IMG/VR virus record: IMGVR_UViG_3300027714_000001
Location: 1 to 64,000 of that record
Strand: one strand, 5' to 3'
Origin: a virus
DNA: 64,000 bases
The notes beneath the pieces are model-generated. The model was not told the origin of the DNA and made no database searches. It was given only the letters and a program-made list of their open reading frames with translations. The position numbers and the translations under genes are program-made. This document shows positions 41,048 through 59,141 of the stretch, one piece after another. How positions within the stretch are numbered: position 1 is the first letter of the stretch; each line of letters begins with the position of its first letter.

Positions 41048-41230
41048 ACTAGTATGCTGCAAAGGTAGACAGGCACATAAACCGTTTAGGTGTGTTCCGT
41101 AAGAGGATAGCTACAATTCTATACAGGTAAAGTTTTAAGTCGGGATGCCTGGCGGTACTAACTGTATAGGAGCTGAGGAGTAATGCCTTCAGTATAGTGA
41201 TTGCGGGTTCGACTCCCGTTGCTAGTACCA
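41048..41230 (+). ncRNA. tRNA-like RNA with ~120-nt insertion in place of the anticodon arm
   Basis: Acceptor ACTAGTA/TGCTAGT + ACCA, D-arm CTG..CAG, T-arm GCGGG TTCGACT CCCGT. Confidence 0.75.
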
Positions 41231-41270
41231 AAATCGCATCGTATTGAATTAATTTATTAAGGAAATATGT

Positions 41271-42880: not shown

Positions 42881-42958
42881 GGAGTCGTAGCTAAAGTGGC
42901 ACAGCACCCGCTTCATATGCGGAAGAATATCCGATTTCGATTATCGGCGACTCTACCA
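42881..42958 (+). tRNA. tRNA-Met(CAT), elongator type
   Basis: Cloverleaf, TT CAT AT loop, CCA. Confidence 0.8.
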
Positions 42959-42973
42959 AACAAGGTAAGCCTC

Positions 42974-43336
42974 ATGAACATTTATTTAGATGATGAAAGA
43001 GTTCCCAAAACAGAAAAAGACTGGGTAATTATCAGAGACGCAAACTCTCTAATAAATTTAATTATACATTTAGGAACCTTACCAGATCATATATCTTTTG
43101 ACCATGATTTAGGGGAAAATGTAAAAACTGGGTACGATGTTGTTAAATCTATAGAGTATCATTTACTGTCTGATTTAATAAACTGGAATCCTAGATTTAC
43201 TTTTACAGTACACTCAGCTAACCCCGTAGGAGCAAAAAACATACAAAGTCATTTGGACAACTTAATTAACCACATGAACCATACACAGGGAAAAAGTAAT
43301 GGCGAAATTACTGTTAGTAAAGGACTACCTATTTGA
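42974..43336 (+). CDS. Cyclic-phosphate-processing receiver domain protein
   Basis: MNIYLDDER, ISFDHDLG, GYD, VHSANPVG motifs; start taken as ATG 42974 after the tRNA. Confidence 0.75.
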   Translation: MNIYLDDERVPKTEKDWVIIRDANSLINLIIHLGTLPDHISFDHDLGENVKTGYDVVKSIEYHLLSDLINWNPRFTFTVHSANPVGAKNIQSHLDNLINHMNHTQGKSNGEITVSKGLPI

Positions 43337-47050: not shown

Positions 47051-47141
47051 GCATGTGTAGACCAGTAAGGATCTGGGGCGGCCTGTAAAGTCGTCGTTGC
47101 CGAGAGGAGCCGTGTAGGATCGTTACCTACCACATGTACCA
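47051..47141 (+). tRNA. tRNA-Tyr(GTA)
   Basis: Long variable arm, CCA. Confidence 0.85.
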
Positions 47142-49814: not shown

Positions 49815-50957
49815 AGAAAGTTAAGAAAAGAGATTAATACGAAGCAAGATTTACTCACTTGTTTTTATAAAGGGCGGTTTTATAGTATTGTAAACGTCTA
49901 AAGGAAGAAAGGGTACAGAGTTCTTCACTATAGTTTTAATTTCTTTTCTTAATTTTCTATGCACACTAGCTTCGGCCACATAGTGTAAGAAAGTTAAAAC
50001 CCTTTCTGTCCAATAATCAACGTAAGTCCTGACCCAGGCATTGTAGGGAGAGAGGTGCAATTCCTACCATATCCACGAGTAACGGTCAGTTTACTGAACT
50101 AACTCTAGGGATAAGGTAGATTAAAGCAGGGCGGTTTAGCGTCCTTAAAATAACCCACTGAAAGGTGGAAAAGGTAACTTGTCAGGTTGCCGCTGTGTAG
50201 GCTCCGGTTTACAATAGTTTATCTAGACAAGCACAAGTTTCATTCCGTAAGAATGTCTTTGAGTCTAAAATCAGAGATAGCATTAAAAGGAACGAGCGTA
50301 GGTACTCCCGACAGGCGAGTATAGCGGCTAATAACCAAAAAGCCAAAATTAGACATGGGGACATATTTAAACCTGCAATCCACTCTAGTACGAAATATGC
50401 AAAAACTAATGTGTAGTTGTTTCAGTCCGAGTAGTCATATAAGGGCAGGCAGCAGTAACAAAGAATTGTTTGTAAATAGACAATCCTTAAAATACGGTGG
50501 AGTAGCGGGAACGCGAAAGACAATGTGGTGTGGAATATTTTGTAAGTCAAAAGCTTACGAACTCCTGACGGAACACATCGCAGACAACTAAATAACGCTA
50601 TTGGTTAGCATTTGACTCTTAATCAAACTATCGGGTTCAATTCCCCATTAATCAAAAGTTTCCGTCGGTACGTTATCGAAAGATTGCTAATCCCTGACAA
50701 TAATGAATCAGGGCATATAAAGGTCGAAAGCCTGCATATGTTTACAACGTAGATAAATTTAGTCTCTTAGCGGAGAGTAACAGCCCTAAAGGTTGGAAGG
50801 AATCGAAATGTAGAGTAGATACGTATGACAGTCTTATATGCTTACAAGACTTTAAAGACAAGCGCAATCGGTGGGATACTAGGGAGACCTAGTGGATACG
50901 CAGCTAACTCATATGGCTCGCAAAAGACCTGCTACTAGAAGCCTTAATCTCAGGCTG
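49815..50957 (+). ncRNA. ~1.1-kb large structured RNA, GOLLD-like candidate with embedded tRNA-Lys(CTT)-like element
   Basis: Promoter at 49779; no credible ORF; many hairpins; tRNA arms at ~50597-50647; 3' end AGCCTTAATCTCAGGCT. Confidence 0.55.
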
Positions 50958-52813: not shown

Positions 52814-52888
52814 AGTCGATTAGCTCAAAGGCAGAGCAGTGGTGTTACATACCAAAGGTTGGGATCTCGGAACTCCCATCGACTACCA
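52814..52888 (+). tRNA. tRNA-Val(TAC)
   Basis: Cloverleaf, atypical T-arm, CCA. Confidence 0.8.
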
Positions 52889-53603: not shown

Positions 53604-53678
53604 AGGAAAGTAGCTGAGATGGATTAGCGCGGGTGTGAAGTACCCGAGACGGCAGATCGTTACTGCCCTTTCCTACCA
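53604..53678 (+). tRNA. tRNA-Phe(GAA)
   Basis: Cloverleaf, CCA. Confidence 0.85.
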
Positions 53679-53758
53679 AATTTATTAAAAAACATGTTGC
53701 ACAATAACCGATAATTCGGTATAATATGTTTCTGGAATTGAGAAATAGCGAGAAAAAT

Positions 53759-54259
53759 ATGGATTACTTTATTGGTGATACCCACTTTGGACACCAAAAT
53801 ATCTTAGAGTTTGGCAGGCCAGGGTATAAAGACATTGAAGATCACAACGAGACTTTAGTGTCAAACTGGAACTCAGTAGTAACTCATAAGAACGACAGAG
53901 TTTACTTAATGGGTGACGTAGCTTTCTCTAGTCAGTACCAGTATTTAGCTAGACTTAACGGTAAGCTAACTATTGTGTTAGGAAACCACGACTACCACAG
54001 CAAAATAAAGATTATTCAGGACATTAGACCTGACGTTAGATTGTGTGGAGCTGTAGCATACGACAAGAGTTTTATCTTAACACACATTCCTGTACATCCT
54101 AGTCAGCTAGAGCACAGGTACAGCCACAACATTCATGGTCACTTGCACAGTTTCAAGATTGACGACCCTCGTTACATTAACGTTAGTTGTGAACAGATCA
54201 ATTCTACTCCGATTTCAATTGAAGAAATTAGAAAAAACATATTGACAGACAGCCAATAA
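53759..54259 (+). CDS. Calcineurin-like metallophosphoesterase
   Basis: GDTHFGH, MGDV, LGNHD, THIP, IHGHLH. Confidence 0.9.
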   Translation: MDYFIGDTHFGHQNILEFGRPGYKDIEDHNETLVSNWNSVVTHKNDRVYLMGDVAFSSQYQYLARLNGKLTIVLGNHDYHSKIKIIQDIRPDVRLCGAVAYDKSFILTHIPVHPSQLEHRYSHNIHGHLHSFKIDDPRYINVSCEQINSTPISIEEIRKNILTDSQ

Positions 54260-54735
54260 TTCGGTATAATATGTTTCTGGAATCGAGAAAGGAAACAAAA
54301 TGTATAGATTATTGTATAAAGGCGTAATTCATGATGTTCATTGTGATTGGTTTATTTTGCACTCAAAAATGTGTAAAAATATTAAACACCACAGCTGGAA
54401 TGTTGATTTCTGTGAGATAGTATAATGAAAAAGTTTATGACTAAGTTATTTACTTTCCTGTACTACACCATTCAGTTTGTAATACTTTATGGTATATTAC
54501 GTCCCCTAGTAGGAGTATGAAAATGGATAAAACTGATATATTATTTATTATATTAATAGTATTTTTTATAGGATTAACTGCGGTTAGTGTAAACACTGTT
54601 ATAAACACTCCGCAAGAAAAGGTACAGTGTGAATGAAAAATAATGTAATACTTCCCATACTAAAAGTAGTGTCAGCAATACTAGTAATGGTTTTAATATG
54701 TGTAGTTGCCCTAAGTATAAATACTTAAAAACAAT

Positions 54736-54810
54736 GCGGGCTTGGTGTTAATGGTAGCACGTTGTCCTTCCAAGTCAAATGTGCAGGTTCGAATCCTGTA
54801 GCCCGTTCCA
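54736..54810 (+). tRNA. tRNA-Gly(TCC)
   Basis: Cloverleaf, U73, CCA. Confidence 0.92.
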
Positions 54811-54814
54811 AATT

Positions 54815-54891
54815 ATAGCAGAATAGCTTATGTCAGGACAAAGCGTATCCTTCGGGGTAAGAATTCGGTTCGAATCCGATGTATGCGATCA
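54815..54891 (+). ncRNA. tRNA mimic with a UUCG tetraloop instead of an anticodon loop
   Basis: D-arm GCTT/AAGC, TATCC-TTCG-GGGTA, T-arm TCGG TTCGAAT CCGA; weak acceptor stem, no CCA. Confidence 0.6.
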
Positions 54892-54897
54892 AACAAA

Positions 54898-54973
54898 TAC
54901 GTGATAGTTTAAATATGAAAAATACAGGCCATTGCGGCTAGAGATGCTAGTGCAAGTCTGGCTCACGTAACCA
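54898..54973 (+). ncRNA. tRNA-like RNA with aberrant anticodon loop
   Basis: Perfect acceptor TACGTGA/TCACGTA + ACCA; arm GCC ATTGC GGC lacks canonical U33/R37. Confidence 0.6.
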
Positions 54974-55148
54974 AATTATTATAGTAAACTGGTTAATCCA
55001 CTAATCAAAAATGTAAGCTGCATACCAAAAATTTGCAGGTCAGCGTTGGTTCGCTGAGTAGGATTGATTACCCTATTACTTAATTGTGTATATTTGAGTC
55101 CCAAGAGGTCTTATGCAACAAATAATTGACTAGTTTACTATAATAATT
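54974..55148 (+). ncRNA. ~175-nt RNA closed by a ~24-bp stem
   Basis: AATTATTATAGTAAACTGGTTAAT pairs with ATTGACTAGTTTACTATAATAATT (two G-U pairs). Confidence 0.6.
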
Positions 55149-55188
55149 TCATAAAGAGATAAAAATGATCAAAGTAATTGGTAACAAC

Positions 55189-57515: not shown

Positions 57516-57590
57516 ACTCCTGTAGCTTAACGGCAAAGCGCAGGCTTCTAAACCCTAGAAATGGGAGTTCAACTCTCCCCAGGAGTACCA
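57516..57590 (+). tRNA. tRNA with CTA anticodon (amber-suppressor-like)
   Basis: Perfect acceptor/D/T arms; loop TT CTA AA at canonical spacing; anticodon stem only 3 bp. Confidence 0.65.
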
Positions 57591-58359: not shown

Positions 58360-58524
58360 ATGGCAAATGTTTATCAAAAAAATAATTTTAAAGACCGCGC
58401 TGACTACTTAGCGTGTTTAGCCGATGATAATGGCGTAGATGTTGTTTTAGTATTAATAGCCGCAGATTTACTTGGGCAAGAAGAAGACTTTGATGGATTA
58501 GTTTCCATGATACAAGATTTATAG
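58360..58524 (+). CDS. Small acidic phage protein
   Basis: Manual translation MANVYQKNNFKDRADYL...LLGQEEDFDGLV; promoter and SD. Confidence 0.65.
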   Translation: MANVYQKNNFKDRADYLACLADDNGVDVVLVLIAADLLGQEEDFDGLVSMIQDL

Positions 58525-58597
58525 GAGTATGGTCTAATGGTTATGACCTCGGACTTTGACTCCGATAGTGCTGGTTCGACTCCAGCTATTCCTTCCA
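58523..58597 (+). tRNA. tRNA-Gln(TTG)
   Basis: Cloverleaf, CCA. Confidence 0.88.
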
Positions 58598-58603
58598 AAC
58601 ACT

Positions 58604-58678
58604 AGTTTCTTAGTATACTGGCTATTACGCTCGGCTGATAACCGAAAGAAACAGGATCGTAACCTGTAGAAACTACCA
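58604..58678 (+). tRNA. tRNA-Ile(GAT)
   Basis: Cloverleaf, CCA. Confidence 0.9.
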
Positions 58679-59065: not shown

Positions 59066-59141
59066 GGGGATGTAGTTGTAATCGGTAAAACGACGCGCTT
59101 GCACCGCGTAGTACGGGGATCGTAACCCCGCTTCTCCACCA
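59066..59141 (+). tRNA. tRNA-Ala(TGC)
   Basis: G3:U70, CCA. Confidence 0.92.

What the first reader, a model, noticed from the sequence alone, without database searches (positions are those of the whole stretch)
54815..54891. Anticodon-less tRNA mimic with a UUCG tetraloop
Seen: directly after tRNA-Gly are a D-arm and a perfect T-arm (TTCGAAT), but the anticodon arm is TATCC-TTCG-GGGTA, a C(UUCG)G tetraloop. The acceptor stem is poor and has no CCA. Random decay is unlikely to give this extra-stable loop. Inference: an elbow-presenting decoy for anticodon nucleases, tRNA-modifying toxins or other tRNA-binding proteins.
Basis: partly seen in the sequence, partly recalled or inferred. Interest (0 to 1): 0.75.

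Follow-up and report, generated by a model that had tools for sequence, protein, structure and literature searches.

The report
Crippled tRNA-Arg copy in phage array
This 75-base stretch is a tRNA gene copy that can no longer read codons, sitting in a T5-like phage's row of tRNA genes; its "UUCG tetraloop" is what is left of an arginine (UCG) anticodon loop after a small deletion, so it is most likely a decaying gene and not a purpose-built decoy, though a decoy role cannot be excluded.

Summary
At 54817-54891, 6 nt after tRNA-Gly and 6 nt before a degenerate tRNA-Gln-like gene, lies a tRNA-sized element. It has an intact D arm (GG in the loop) and a T arm with loop TTCGAAT. Its anticodon arm is TATCC-TTCG-GGGTA, its acceptor stem pairs at only 4 of 7 positions, and TCA stands where all 26 tRNAs of this genome have CCA.

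It is certainly tRNA-derived, but the argument that decay could not produce this loop fails. CUUCGG is the native sequence of positions 32-37 of phage tRNA-Arg(UCG): 20 of 21 unique genes have the loop CUUCGGA. The element also carries the arginine mark A20 (42/44 phage tRNA-Arg, 10% of other tRNAs). Losing A38 plus one stem pair gives the "tetraloop".

The codons it would serve are the rarest (CGA 3.4, CGG 0.7 per 1000), and tRNA-Arg(ACG) and tRNA-Arg(UCU) are present. Its cloverleaf is the weakest in the array (-7.5 kcal/mol against an MFE of -15.2). No homologue was found, and close relatives could not be reached.

Best reading: a non-decoding relic of tRNA-Arg(UCG), confidence 0.55. Rival: a selected sealed-anticodon mimic, 0.3. 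This scan has noted such UUCG-sealed look-alikes before on other DNA, and I found several in IMG/VR. Phage T5 has annotated tRNA-like RNAs and a tRNA pseudogene.

The parts
54242..54270 (+). Consensus sigma-70-type promoter (TTGACA-17-TATAAT) that probably drives the unit of small ORFs, tRNA-Gly, the element and the tRNA-Gln-like gene
   Evidence: 12 of 12 matches. No terminator-like site on the + strand between it and 55400.
54736..54810 (+). tRNA-Gly(UCC), bona fide, with encoded CCA
   Evidence: (57.4 bits)
54817..54891 (+). The element: a 75-nt tRNA-derived, non-decoding gene in register with the array (6-nt spacers aattat and aacaaa)
   Evidence: not called
54817..54823 (+). Acceptor 5' strand AGCAGAA; pairs with 54881-54887 at only 4 of 7 positions (A.G, G.A and A.G mismatches)
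   Evidence: by hand; pair probabilities of 0.035 or less
54826..54844 (+). D arm: stem GCTT/AAGC, 11-nt loop ATGTCAGGACA with G18 G19 and A20 (the arginine identity mark)
   Evidence: A20 statistics (42/44 tRNA-Arg against 46/441 other tRNAs)
54846..54859 (+). Anticodon arm TATCC-TTCG-GGGTA. It can equally be read as a 4-bp stem plus the 6-nt loop CUUCGG, which is positions 32-37 of tRNA-Arg(UCG) without A38.
   Evidence: (loop CUUCGGA in 20 of 21 unique phage tRNA-Arg(UCG) genes); hairpin -3.3 kcal/mol
54864..54880 (+). T arm: stem TTCGG/CCGAT (U.U at 49:65, then 4 Watson-Crick pairs), loop TTCGAAT
54881..54891 (+). Acceptor 3' strand GTATGCG, discriminator A, then TCA in the place of CCA
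   Evidence: all 26 other tRNA genes of the genome end in CCA
54898..54973 (+). Neighbouring degenerate tRNA-Gln(UUG)-like gene: perfect acceptor stem plus CCA, but A33, C37, no GG in the D loop and T loop TGCAAGT
   Evidence: called only at lowered ARAGORN thresholds; cloverleaf -10.1 against MFE -19.8

Best explanation
The element is a former tRNA gene, most likely tRNA-Arg(UCG), kept in its slot in the tandem trio tRNA-Gly / X / tRNA-Gln-like of a T5-like phage's tRNA array.

How the loop arose (inferred): loss of about three bases in the anticodon arm (A38 plus one stem pair) left C32-U33-U34-C35-G36-G37. This folds into a C(UUCG)G-capped hairpin, so the 'tetraloop' is the remains of U33 plus the UCG anticodon.

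Other damage (shown): three acceptor-stem mismatches, CCA changed to UCA, and a U.U pair in the T stem.

Expression and processing (inferred): it is co-transcribed from the promoter at 54242-54270. It is released as a fragment of roughly 75-87 nt when its neighbours are matured by RNase P at the 5' end of the next tRNA and by 3' trimming of tRNA-Gly.

Consequence (shown from the sequence): it cannot read codons and very probably cannot be aminoacylated.

Status (inferred): a decaying, redundant gene copy with no selected function of its own. Its origin from a tRNA gene is near-certain, an arginine origin is likely, and the lack of any function is the weakest step.
For: Position in the array:
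- It lies in register with 6-nt spacers like five other tandem pairs, and TCA stands exactly where all 26 tRNAs have CCA.

Arginine origin:
- A complete IMG/VR enumeration of CTTCGG-N10-13-GGTTCGAATCC gave 109 loci. Of these, 26 are ordinary tRNA-Arg(UCG) in which CUUCGG is positions 32-37, and 20 of 21 unique genes have the loop CUUCGGA.
- GGA (A20) in the D loop occurs in 42/44 phage tRNA-Arg against 46/441 other tRNAs, and the element has GGACA.

Redundancy:
- CGA and CGG are the rarest arginine codons (3.4 and 0.7 per 1000), and tRNA-Arg(ACG) and tRNA-Arg(UCU) are present.

Weak fold:
- The cloverleaf is -7.5 kcal/mol against an MFE of -15.2, with z = -0.04 relative to shuffles. The genome's ordinary-length tRNAs with a firm call mostly have cloverleaves of -13.7 to -30.1, usually within 0-6 kcal of their MFE; tRNA-Trp (-10.4) and tRNA-Pro (gap 11.3) fall outside.
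- It fails Rfam tRNA and ARAGORN.

Neighbourhood and relatives:
- The next gene is also a degenerate tRNA.
- The two complete relatives have tRNA-Tyr, not this element, after the homologous tRNA-Gly.
- Phage T5 has an annotated tRNA-Gln pseudogene beside its Gly/Gln genes.
Against: - All universally conserved core nucleotides and the D and anticodon stems are intact, while the damage sits at the acceptor/CCA end. Of 5 visible point defects, 4 fall in 17 of 55 scorable sites (p about 0.03, post hoc, my arithmetic). That pattern is also what a selected non-chargeable mimic would show.
- Phage genomes are compact, and T5-like arrays are known to make stable tRNA-like RNAs.
- tRNA look-alikes with a CUUCGG loop and well-paired stems recur in unrelated IMG/VR phages.
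- The arginine assignment rests on the loop and A20 only. Overall similarity does not single out tRNA-Arg, and the D arm resembles T5 tRNA-Gln1.
- No relative close enough to test conservation could be retrieved.
Confidence: 0.55

Rival explanations
1. A selected, non-decoding tRNA mimic ('sealed anticodon'). The body and elbow of a tRNA-Arg are kept, while the anticodon loop is closed and the acceptor/CCA end disabled. The RNA then binds some tRNA-recognising protein without entering translation. Candidate partners are an arginine-tRNA-directed anticodon nuclease of the colicin D type (which cuts after position 38, the base missing here; my own knowledge), a modification enzyme, or RNase P.
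For: - The core nucleotides and three of the four stems are intact, and the defects cluster at the acceptor end (p about 0.03, post hoc).
- The arginine identity marks A20, C35 and G36 are kept.
- Sealed CUUCGG tRNA look-alikes with good stems exist in other phages: the L220 type in 5 contigs, and L278, L318, L365, L371, L339, L360.
- The tRNA region encodes RNA-repair-type proteins: cREC_REC PF20274 at 42896-43336 and a Metallophos_2 phosphoesterase at 53726-54259.
- T5 makes stable tRNA-like RNAs.
Against: - There is a single copy with no detectable homologue.
- The cloverleaf is thermodynamically disfavoured: pair probabilities are about 0.1 for the anticodon stem and 0.03 for the T stem.
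- The other sealed look-alikes differ from it. They have well-paired acceptor helices, many have their own promoter and U-tract, and 0 of 8 have A20.
- The loop needs only a one-base deletion from tRNA-Arg(UCG).
Confidence: 0.3
2. A structured spacer that does not fold as a cloverleaf. The RNA adopts the long irregular hairpin of the minimum-free-energy fold (54843-54886) and serves only as a processing spacer between tRNA-Gly and the next tRNA.
For: The MFE structure is -15.2 kcal/mol, twice the stability of the cloverleaf.
Against: - The MFE is no better than that of shuffled sequence (z = -0.04).
- Real tRNAs are also often mispredicted.
- This reading does not explain the tRNA-like nucleotides or the exact register in the array.
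Confidence: 0.08
3. A still-working tRNA-Arg with an unusual short anticodon loop.
For: U33-U34-C35-G36 and A20 are present. ARAGORN calls some 6-nt-loop tRNAs elsewhere.
Against: - There is no CCA in a genome where every tRNA encodes it.
- Three of the 7 acceptor pairs are broken.
- The stem has 4 bp and the loop 6 nt.
- No program calls it a tRNA.
Confidence: 0.04
4. A chance resemblance in intergenic DNA.
For: It fails both tRNA finders.
Against: - It lies in exact register in the array.
- It has the full T-loop 11-mer (16 found against 0.3 expected).
- It has a D arm with GG, and it is the only such descriptor hit in 1.24 Mb.
Confidence: 0.03

Closest known systems
Phage tRNA-Arg(UCG) genes (Rfam RF00005 tRNA)
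   Same: - The loop sequence C32-U33-U34-C35-G36-G37 (CUUCGG).
- A20 in the D loop.
- A short variable region beginning AGA.
- T loop TTCGAAT.
- A position inside a phage tRNA array.
   Different: - It lacks A38 and one anticodon-stem pair, so the arm has 14 nt instead of 17.
- The D loop is long (11 nt).
- The acceptor stem pairs at 4 of 7 positions.
- UCA stands in place of CCA.
- It scores below any reportable Rfam tRNA match.
tRNA-Gln2(CUG) pseudogene of phage T5 (AY543070, 29344-29419, flagged pseudo)
   Same: A non-functional tRNA gene copy kept in tandem with tRNA-Gly and tRNA-Gln, with spacers of about 7 nt, in the tRNA region of a T5-type phage.
   Different: The T5 copy keeps a 7-nt anticodon loop, a full acceptor stem and CCA. 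The order of the trio also differs.
T5 RNA3 'putative tRNA-like RNA' and the tRNA-like stable RNAs RNA1 and RNA2 (AY543070)
   Same: Non-decoding tRNA-like genes lying a few bases from true tRNAs in a T5-type array. RNA3 is 73 nt and has a 6-bp stem with a 6-nt loop in the anticodon position.
   Different: - RNA3, RNA1 and RNA2 have well-paired acceptor stems; RNA3 ends in ACCA, while RNA1 and RNA2 show no CCA at their annotated ends.
- RNA3 has no UUCG and no clear D arm.
- The element's covariance model did not hit them.
Sealed-anticodon CUUCGG tRNA look-alikes in other uncultured phages (IMG/VR loci L220/L223/L285, L278, L318, L365, L371, L339, L360). I know of no publication on them.
   Same: A tRNA-sized cloverleaf with CUUCGG where the anticodon loop should be, and the T loop TTCGAAT. 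They score 16-32 bits with the element's model.
   Different: - They have well-paired acceptor helices.
- Several stand alone with their own promoter-like sequence and a U-tract.
- None of the 8 that ARAGORN parses has A20.
- The anticodon stem has 5-6 bp.
mascRNA, YrlA/Y RNA tRNA-like module, tmRNA tRNA-like domain
   Same: Non-decoding RNAs that present a tRNA-like elbow (from the literature, my own knowledge).
   Different: No Rfam family other than chance-level matches hits the element. Those RNAs have different connectivity and good acceptor helices.

Membership tests
Canonical tRNA (Rfam RF00005) | Scores at or above the family's gathering threshold (29 bits), or is called by ARAGORN | tested here: not met
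   No match even at E<=10 in a 701-nt search. ARAGORN is silent at default, 80% and 70% thresholds.
Canonical tRNA (Rfam RF00005) | A 7-nt anticodon loop with U33 and a purine at position 37, on a 5-bp stem | tested here: not met
   The loop is 4 nt on a 5-bp stem, or 6 nt on a 4-bp stem.
Canonical tRNA (Rfam RF00005) | A 7-bp acceptor stem followed by a discriminator and CCA (encoded in this genome) | tested here: not met
   4 of 7 pairs, and A-UCA at the end. All 26 other tRNAs end in CCA.
Canonical tRNA (Rfam RF00005) | D arm with G18 G19, T arm with the T-Psi-C loop, and U8, A14, A21 | tested here: met
   All are present. The T stem has one U.U pair.
Relic of tRNA-Arg(UCG) | Occupies a tRNA-gene slot in register with the array | tested here: met
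   6-nt spacers on both sides, as in five other tandem pairs.
Relic of tRNA-Arg(UCG) | Loop sequence CUUCGG (positions 32-37 of tRNA-Arg(UCG)) | tested here: met
   20 of 21 unique phage tRNA-Arg(UCG) genes have the loop CUUCGGA. In one search all 14 canonical loops that begin CUUCGG are tRNA-Arg(UCG), and the only 2 others are 6-nt-loop calls that ARAGORN labels ?(Glu|Arg)(tc).
Relic of tRNA-Arg(UCG) | A20 in the D loop (ArgRS identity element, known from E. coli; my own knowledge) | tested here: met
   The element has GGACA. GGA occurs in 42/44 tRNA-Arg against 46/441 other tRNAs.
Relic of tRNA-Arg(UCG) | An intact orthologue at the same place in relatives | not testable with these tools
   The nearest reachable relatives (49% identity in the origin-binding protein) have tRNA-Tyr after tRNA-Gly.
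T5-type tRNA-like stable RNAs (RNA1, RNA2, RNA3) | Lies in the tRNA region of a T5-like phage | tested here: met
   T5-like gene content: phrog_3712, PolA, SbcC, RNR. The element lies inside the array.
T5-type tRNA-like stable RNAs (RNA1, RNA2, RNA3) | Sequence or structure homology to T5 RNA1, RNA2 or RNA3 | tested here: not met
   Model R1 hits T5 tRNA-Gln1 (25.9 bits) but none of RNA1-3.
T5-type tRNA-like stable RNAs (RNA1, RNA2, RNA3) | Accumulates as a stable RNA during infection | not testable with these tools
   The phage is uncultured and there are no RNA data.
Sealed-anticodon CUUCGG tRNA look-alikes of other phages | CUUCGG cap in the anticodon position of an otherwise tRNA-like cloverleaf | tested here: met
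Sealed-anticodon CUUCGG tRNA look-alikes of other phages | A well-paired acceptor (closing) helix | tested here: not met
   4 of 7 pairs here, against 7 of 7 in the L220 type and long helices in L365 and L371.
Sealed-anticodon CUUCGG tRNA look-alikes of other phages | The cap and fold are conserved among related phages | not testable with these tools
   No homologue of this element was found.

The most novel reading that the evidence does not exclude
The element is a deliberately disabled tRNA-Arg. Its body, elbow and arginine identity marks (A20, C35, G36) are kept. Its anticodon loop is sealed by loss of the very base (38) after which arginine-tRNA-specific anticodon nucleases cut. Its CCA end is spoiled so that it stays out of translation. 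It would then be an uncleavable sponge for a host tRNA-Arg-directed nuclease or other tRNA-binding defence protein, and one of a recurrent, unpublished class of sealed-anticodon phage tRNA mimics.
Probability: 0.25. Interest if true: 0.65.

Novelty: new member of a known kind. Interest (0 to 1): 0.3.

Why it matters
As a relic, it is an ordinary by-product of tRNA-array turnover in large lytic phages. It is useful mainly as a caution: a C(UUCG)G "tetraloop" in the anticodon position is one deletion away from any tRNA-Arg(UCG), so the loop alone is no sign of design.

If it were instead a selected mimic, it would add an array-embedded, arginine-derived, non-chargeable form to the sealed-anticodon tRNA look-alikes seen in other phages. 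It would also point to a concrete target class to test, namely tRNA-Arg-directed nucleases.

Tried and rejected
- Alternative 7-nt-loop registers (Arg CCU, Arg UCG, Pro CGG) tried by hand do not give paired stems. Rejected.
- The hairpin as the variable arm of a class II tRNA: the 24 IMG/VR hits to TCCTTCGGGG...GGTTCGAATCC are almost all long-arm (class II type) tRNAs with a UUCG-capped variable arm. Here only 35 nt lie upstream and 4-5 nt separate the hairpin from the T stem. Rejected.
- Single-sequence covariance model R1 found no homologue in the window, the rest of the genome, about 0.66 Mb of loci, or five related virus records. The hit L009:514-583 lies in coding sequence and was discarded.
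- A cloverleaf descriptor scan of 1.24 Mb found only this element and misparsed real tRNAs.
- Relatives sought through the phosphoesterase, the methyltransferase and the origin-binding protein in IMG/VR and the metagenome collection reached at most 57%, 52% and 77% identity. The 77% contig is only 4.8 kb. None carries the element.
- A scan with the conserved tRNA-Gly 19-mer gave 15 loci, none with the element.
- BLASTN of the element against GenBank phages gave only chance-level hits. The LR756504 hit is coding sequence.
- Isotype assignment by global alignment to 512 phage tRNAs was inconclusive.
- A recurrent UCA 3' end in sealed look-alikes (L220 type, L278, this element) was not consistent across the full set. 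Dropped.

Full report
SETTING

The window is the first 64 kb of a 106,179-bp IMG/VR virus record with direct terminal repeats. Its gene content is T5-like: a phrog_3712 origin-binding protein, family-A DNA polymerase, SbcC, DnaB-type helicase and ribonucleotide reductase. Between about 41 and 59 kb lies a tRNA array of 26 genes, one or more for every amino acid, mostly with U34 for the four-codon boxes. A GOLLD RNA lies among them. There is no close relative among GenBank phages.

THE OBSERVATION

- tRNA-Gly(UCC) ends with CCA at 54810.
- After the spacer aattat comes a 75-nt unit, 54817-54891.
- Its parts are: AGCAGAA; UA; D stem GCTT/AAGC around the 11-nt loop ATGTCAGGACA; G; TATCC-TTCG-GGGTA; AGAA; TTCGG-TTCGAAT-CCGAT; GTATGCG; A; TCA.
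- The D stem (4 of 4 pairs) and the anticodon stem (5 of 5, one U-G) are intact.
- The T stem has one U.U pair.
- The acceptor pairs at only 4 of 7 positions, with A.G, G.A and A.G mismatches.
- After the spacer aacaaa, a second odd tRNA begins at 54898.

ARAGORN does not call the element at any threshold tried, and the Rfam tRNA model gives no match at E<=10.

It is nevertheless not a chance look-alike.
- The 11-mer GGTTCGAATCC (one mismatch allowed) occurs 16 times in the window against 0.3 expected. The 16 comprise 13 called tRNAs (one counted on both strands), this element, and one large tRNA-like RNA.
- A descriptor for a cloverleaf with a 4-nt anticodon loop found no comparable uncalled hit in 1.24 Mb of phage DNA.
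- The unit sits exactly in register. Five other tandem tRNA pairs in this genome also have 6-nt spacers, and TCA stands where every one of the 26 tRNAs has CCA.

WHAT THE 'TETRALOOP' IS

A first pattern scan showed that UUCG caps are common in the variable arms of long-arm tRNAs. That reading does not fit here.

A complete enumeration of CTTCGG-N10-13-GGTTCGAATCC in IMG/VR gave 109 loci. Of these, 26 are ordinary tRNA-Arg(UCG) in which CUUCGG begins two bases before the anticodon, so it is C32-U33-U34-C35-G36-G37. Twenty of 21 unique genes have the loop CUUCGGA, and 20 of 21 have GGA in the D loop, some as GGACAA.

Across 485 unique phage tRNAs, GGA (A20) is found in 42 of 44 tRNA-Arg but in only 46 of 441 others. 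The element has GGACA.

So the loop and the D loop both point to tRNA-Arg(UCG). Deleting A38 alone turns that loop into C(UUCG)G. Here one stem pair is missing as well, which makes the arm 14 nt long instead of 17.

The assignment is not proven. Global similarity does not single out tRNA-Arg. The D arm also resembles that of T5 tRNA-Gln1, the best T5 hit to the element's model.

IS IT STILL USEFUL TO THE PHAGE?

Points for decay:
- CGA and CGG are the rarest arginine codons in 52 long ORFs (3.4 and 0.7 per 1000), and tRNA-Arg(ACG) and tRNA-Arg(UCU) are present.
- The cloverleaf is worth only -7.5 kcal/mol against an MFE of -15.2, and the MFE is no better than that of shuffles (z = -0.04).
- Ensemble pair probabilities are about 0.1 for the anticodon stem and 0.03 for the T stem.
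- The genome's ordinary-length tRNAs with a firm call mostly have cloverleaves of -13.7 to -30.1 kcal/mol, usually within 0-6 kcal of their MFE; tRNA-Trp (-10.4) and tRNA-Pro (gap 11.3) fall outside.
- The next gene (54898-54973) is also degenerate: A33, C37, no GG in the D loop, cloverleaf -10.1.
- The two complete relatives, at 49% identity in the origin-binding protein, have tRNA-Tyr after the homologous tRNA-Gly.
- A scan with a conserved tRNA-Gly 19-mer found no other relative with the element.

Points for retention:
- Every universally conserved core base and three of the four stems are intact, while 4 of the 5 visible point defects hit the acceptor/CCA end. By my own arithmetic that gives p about 0.03, chosen after seeing the data.
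- T5 itself carries annotated tRNA-like stable RNAs (RNA1, RNA2), a 'putative tRNA-like' RNA3 and a tRNA-Gln pseudogene next to its Gly and Gln genes.
- I found tRNA look-alikes with a CUUCGG loop and good stems in unrelated IMG/VR phages. The L220 type occurs in five contigs. L278, L318, L365, L371 and L360 stand alone behind promoter-like sequences, and most of them are followed by a U-tract. L339 has ACCA.
- Those look-alikes differ from this element, however. They have well-paired closing helices, and none of the 8 that ARAGORN parses has A20.

The scan's earlier notes report sealed-anticodon mimics in some 60 genomes. I treat that as a lead only.

LIKELY MECHANISM

A perfect consensus promoter lies at 54242-54270, and no terminator-like site follows on the + strand. 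The element should therefore be transcribed with three small ORFs, tRNA-Gly and the tRNA-Gln-like gene. It would be freed as a by-product of their maturation.

With a 4- or 6-nt loop it cannot decode. With UCA and a mismatched acceptor stem it should not be charged.

I rate the readings as follows:
- Relic without a function of its own: 0.55.
- Selected sealed mimic: 0.30.
- Non-cloverleaf spacer: 0.08.
- Working tRNA: 0.04.
- Chance: 0.03.

LIMITS

- The 93% and 75% relatives seen at protein level could not be read, so conservation, which is the decisive test, remains open.

Noticed in passing
window 54898-54973: A tRNA-Gln(UUG)-like gene. It has a perfect acceptor stem (U1-A72) and CCA, but also A33, C37, a D loop without GG and the T loop TGCAAGT. 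ARAGORN calls it only at lowered thresholds. A normal tRNA-Gln(UUG) lies at 58523-58597.
   Followed up: partly
window 41049-41231: A 183-nt tRNA-like RNA 7 nt after tRNA-Cys. It has a 7-bp acceptor stem (ACTAGTA/TGCTAGT), the T arm GCGGG-TTCGACT-CCCGT, discriminator A and CCA, with about 110 nt of extra hairpins inserted. It recalls T5 RNA1 and RNA2 ('tRNA-like stable RNA'). No tool called it.
   Followed up: partly
window 50523-50956: A full-length GOLLD RNA (Rfam RF02032, 175 bits) inside the tRNA array.
   Followed up: no
window 57516-57590: A tRNA with anticodon CUA (an amber suppressor, labelled Pyl by ARAGORN). TAG ends 6 of 52 long ORFs, so the code looks standard and the role of the suppressor is open.
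   Followed up: partly
window 42896-43336 and 53726-54259: Two RNA-end-processing-type proteins inside the tRNA region. One has a cREC_REC 'cyclic-phosphate processing receiver' domain (PF20274, 79 bits). The other is a Metallophos_2 phosphoesterase (PF12850). They hint at tRNA repair or conflict with host tRNA nucleases.
   Followed up: partly
window 54973-54997 / 55125-55149: A 25-nt inverted repeat, 92% complementary, enclosing 127 nt just after the tRNA-Gln-like gene. It is one of several long closing helices that first readers noted in this array.
   Followed up: partly
window 52814-52888, 53604-53678, 47051-47141, 58604-58678, 59066-59141: Several apparently functional tRNAs have non-standard T loops. 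Phe, Tyr, Ile and Ala have ATCGTTA or ATCGTAA, and Val(UAC) has CTCGGAA. ARAGORN misses tRNA-Val(UAC) at 52814, while Rfam finds it.
   Followed up: no
L318:4931-5007, L365:4382-4459, L371:6761-6835 (- strand), L278:5664-5739, L223:5462-5535: Stand-alone tRNA look-alikes with a CUUCGG loop in unrelated IMG/VR phages. Each lies behind a promoter-like sequence, and three share an upstream CGCGAAAATTACA-like motif. Most are followed by a U-tract, and there are no tRNA genes nearby.
   Followed up: partly
L307:19952-20041 (G002, - strand) and its G003 counterpart in L305: A 90-nt tRNA after tRNA-Gly in the relatives. ARAGORN labels it Ala(GGC), but it folds as tRNA-Tyr(GUA) with an 8-bp acceptor stem and a variable arm.
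   Followed up: partly
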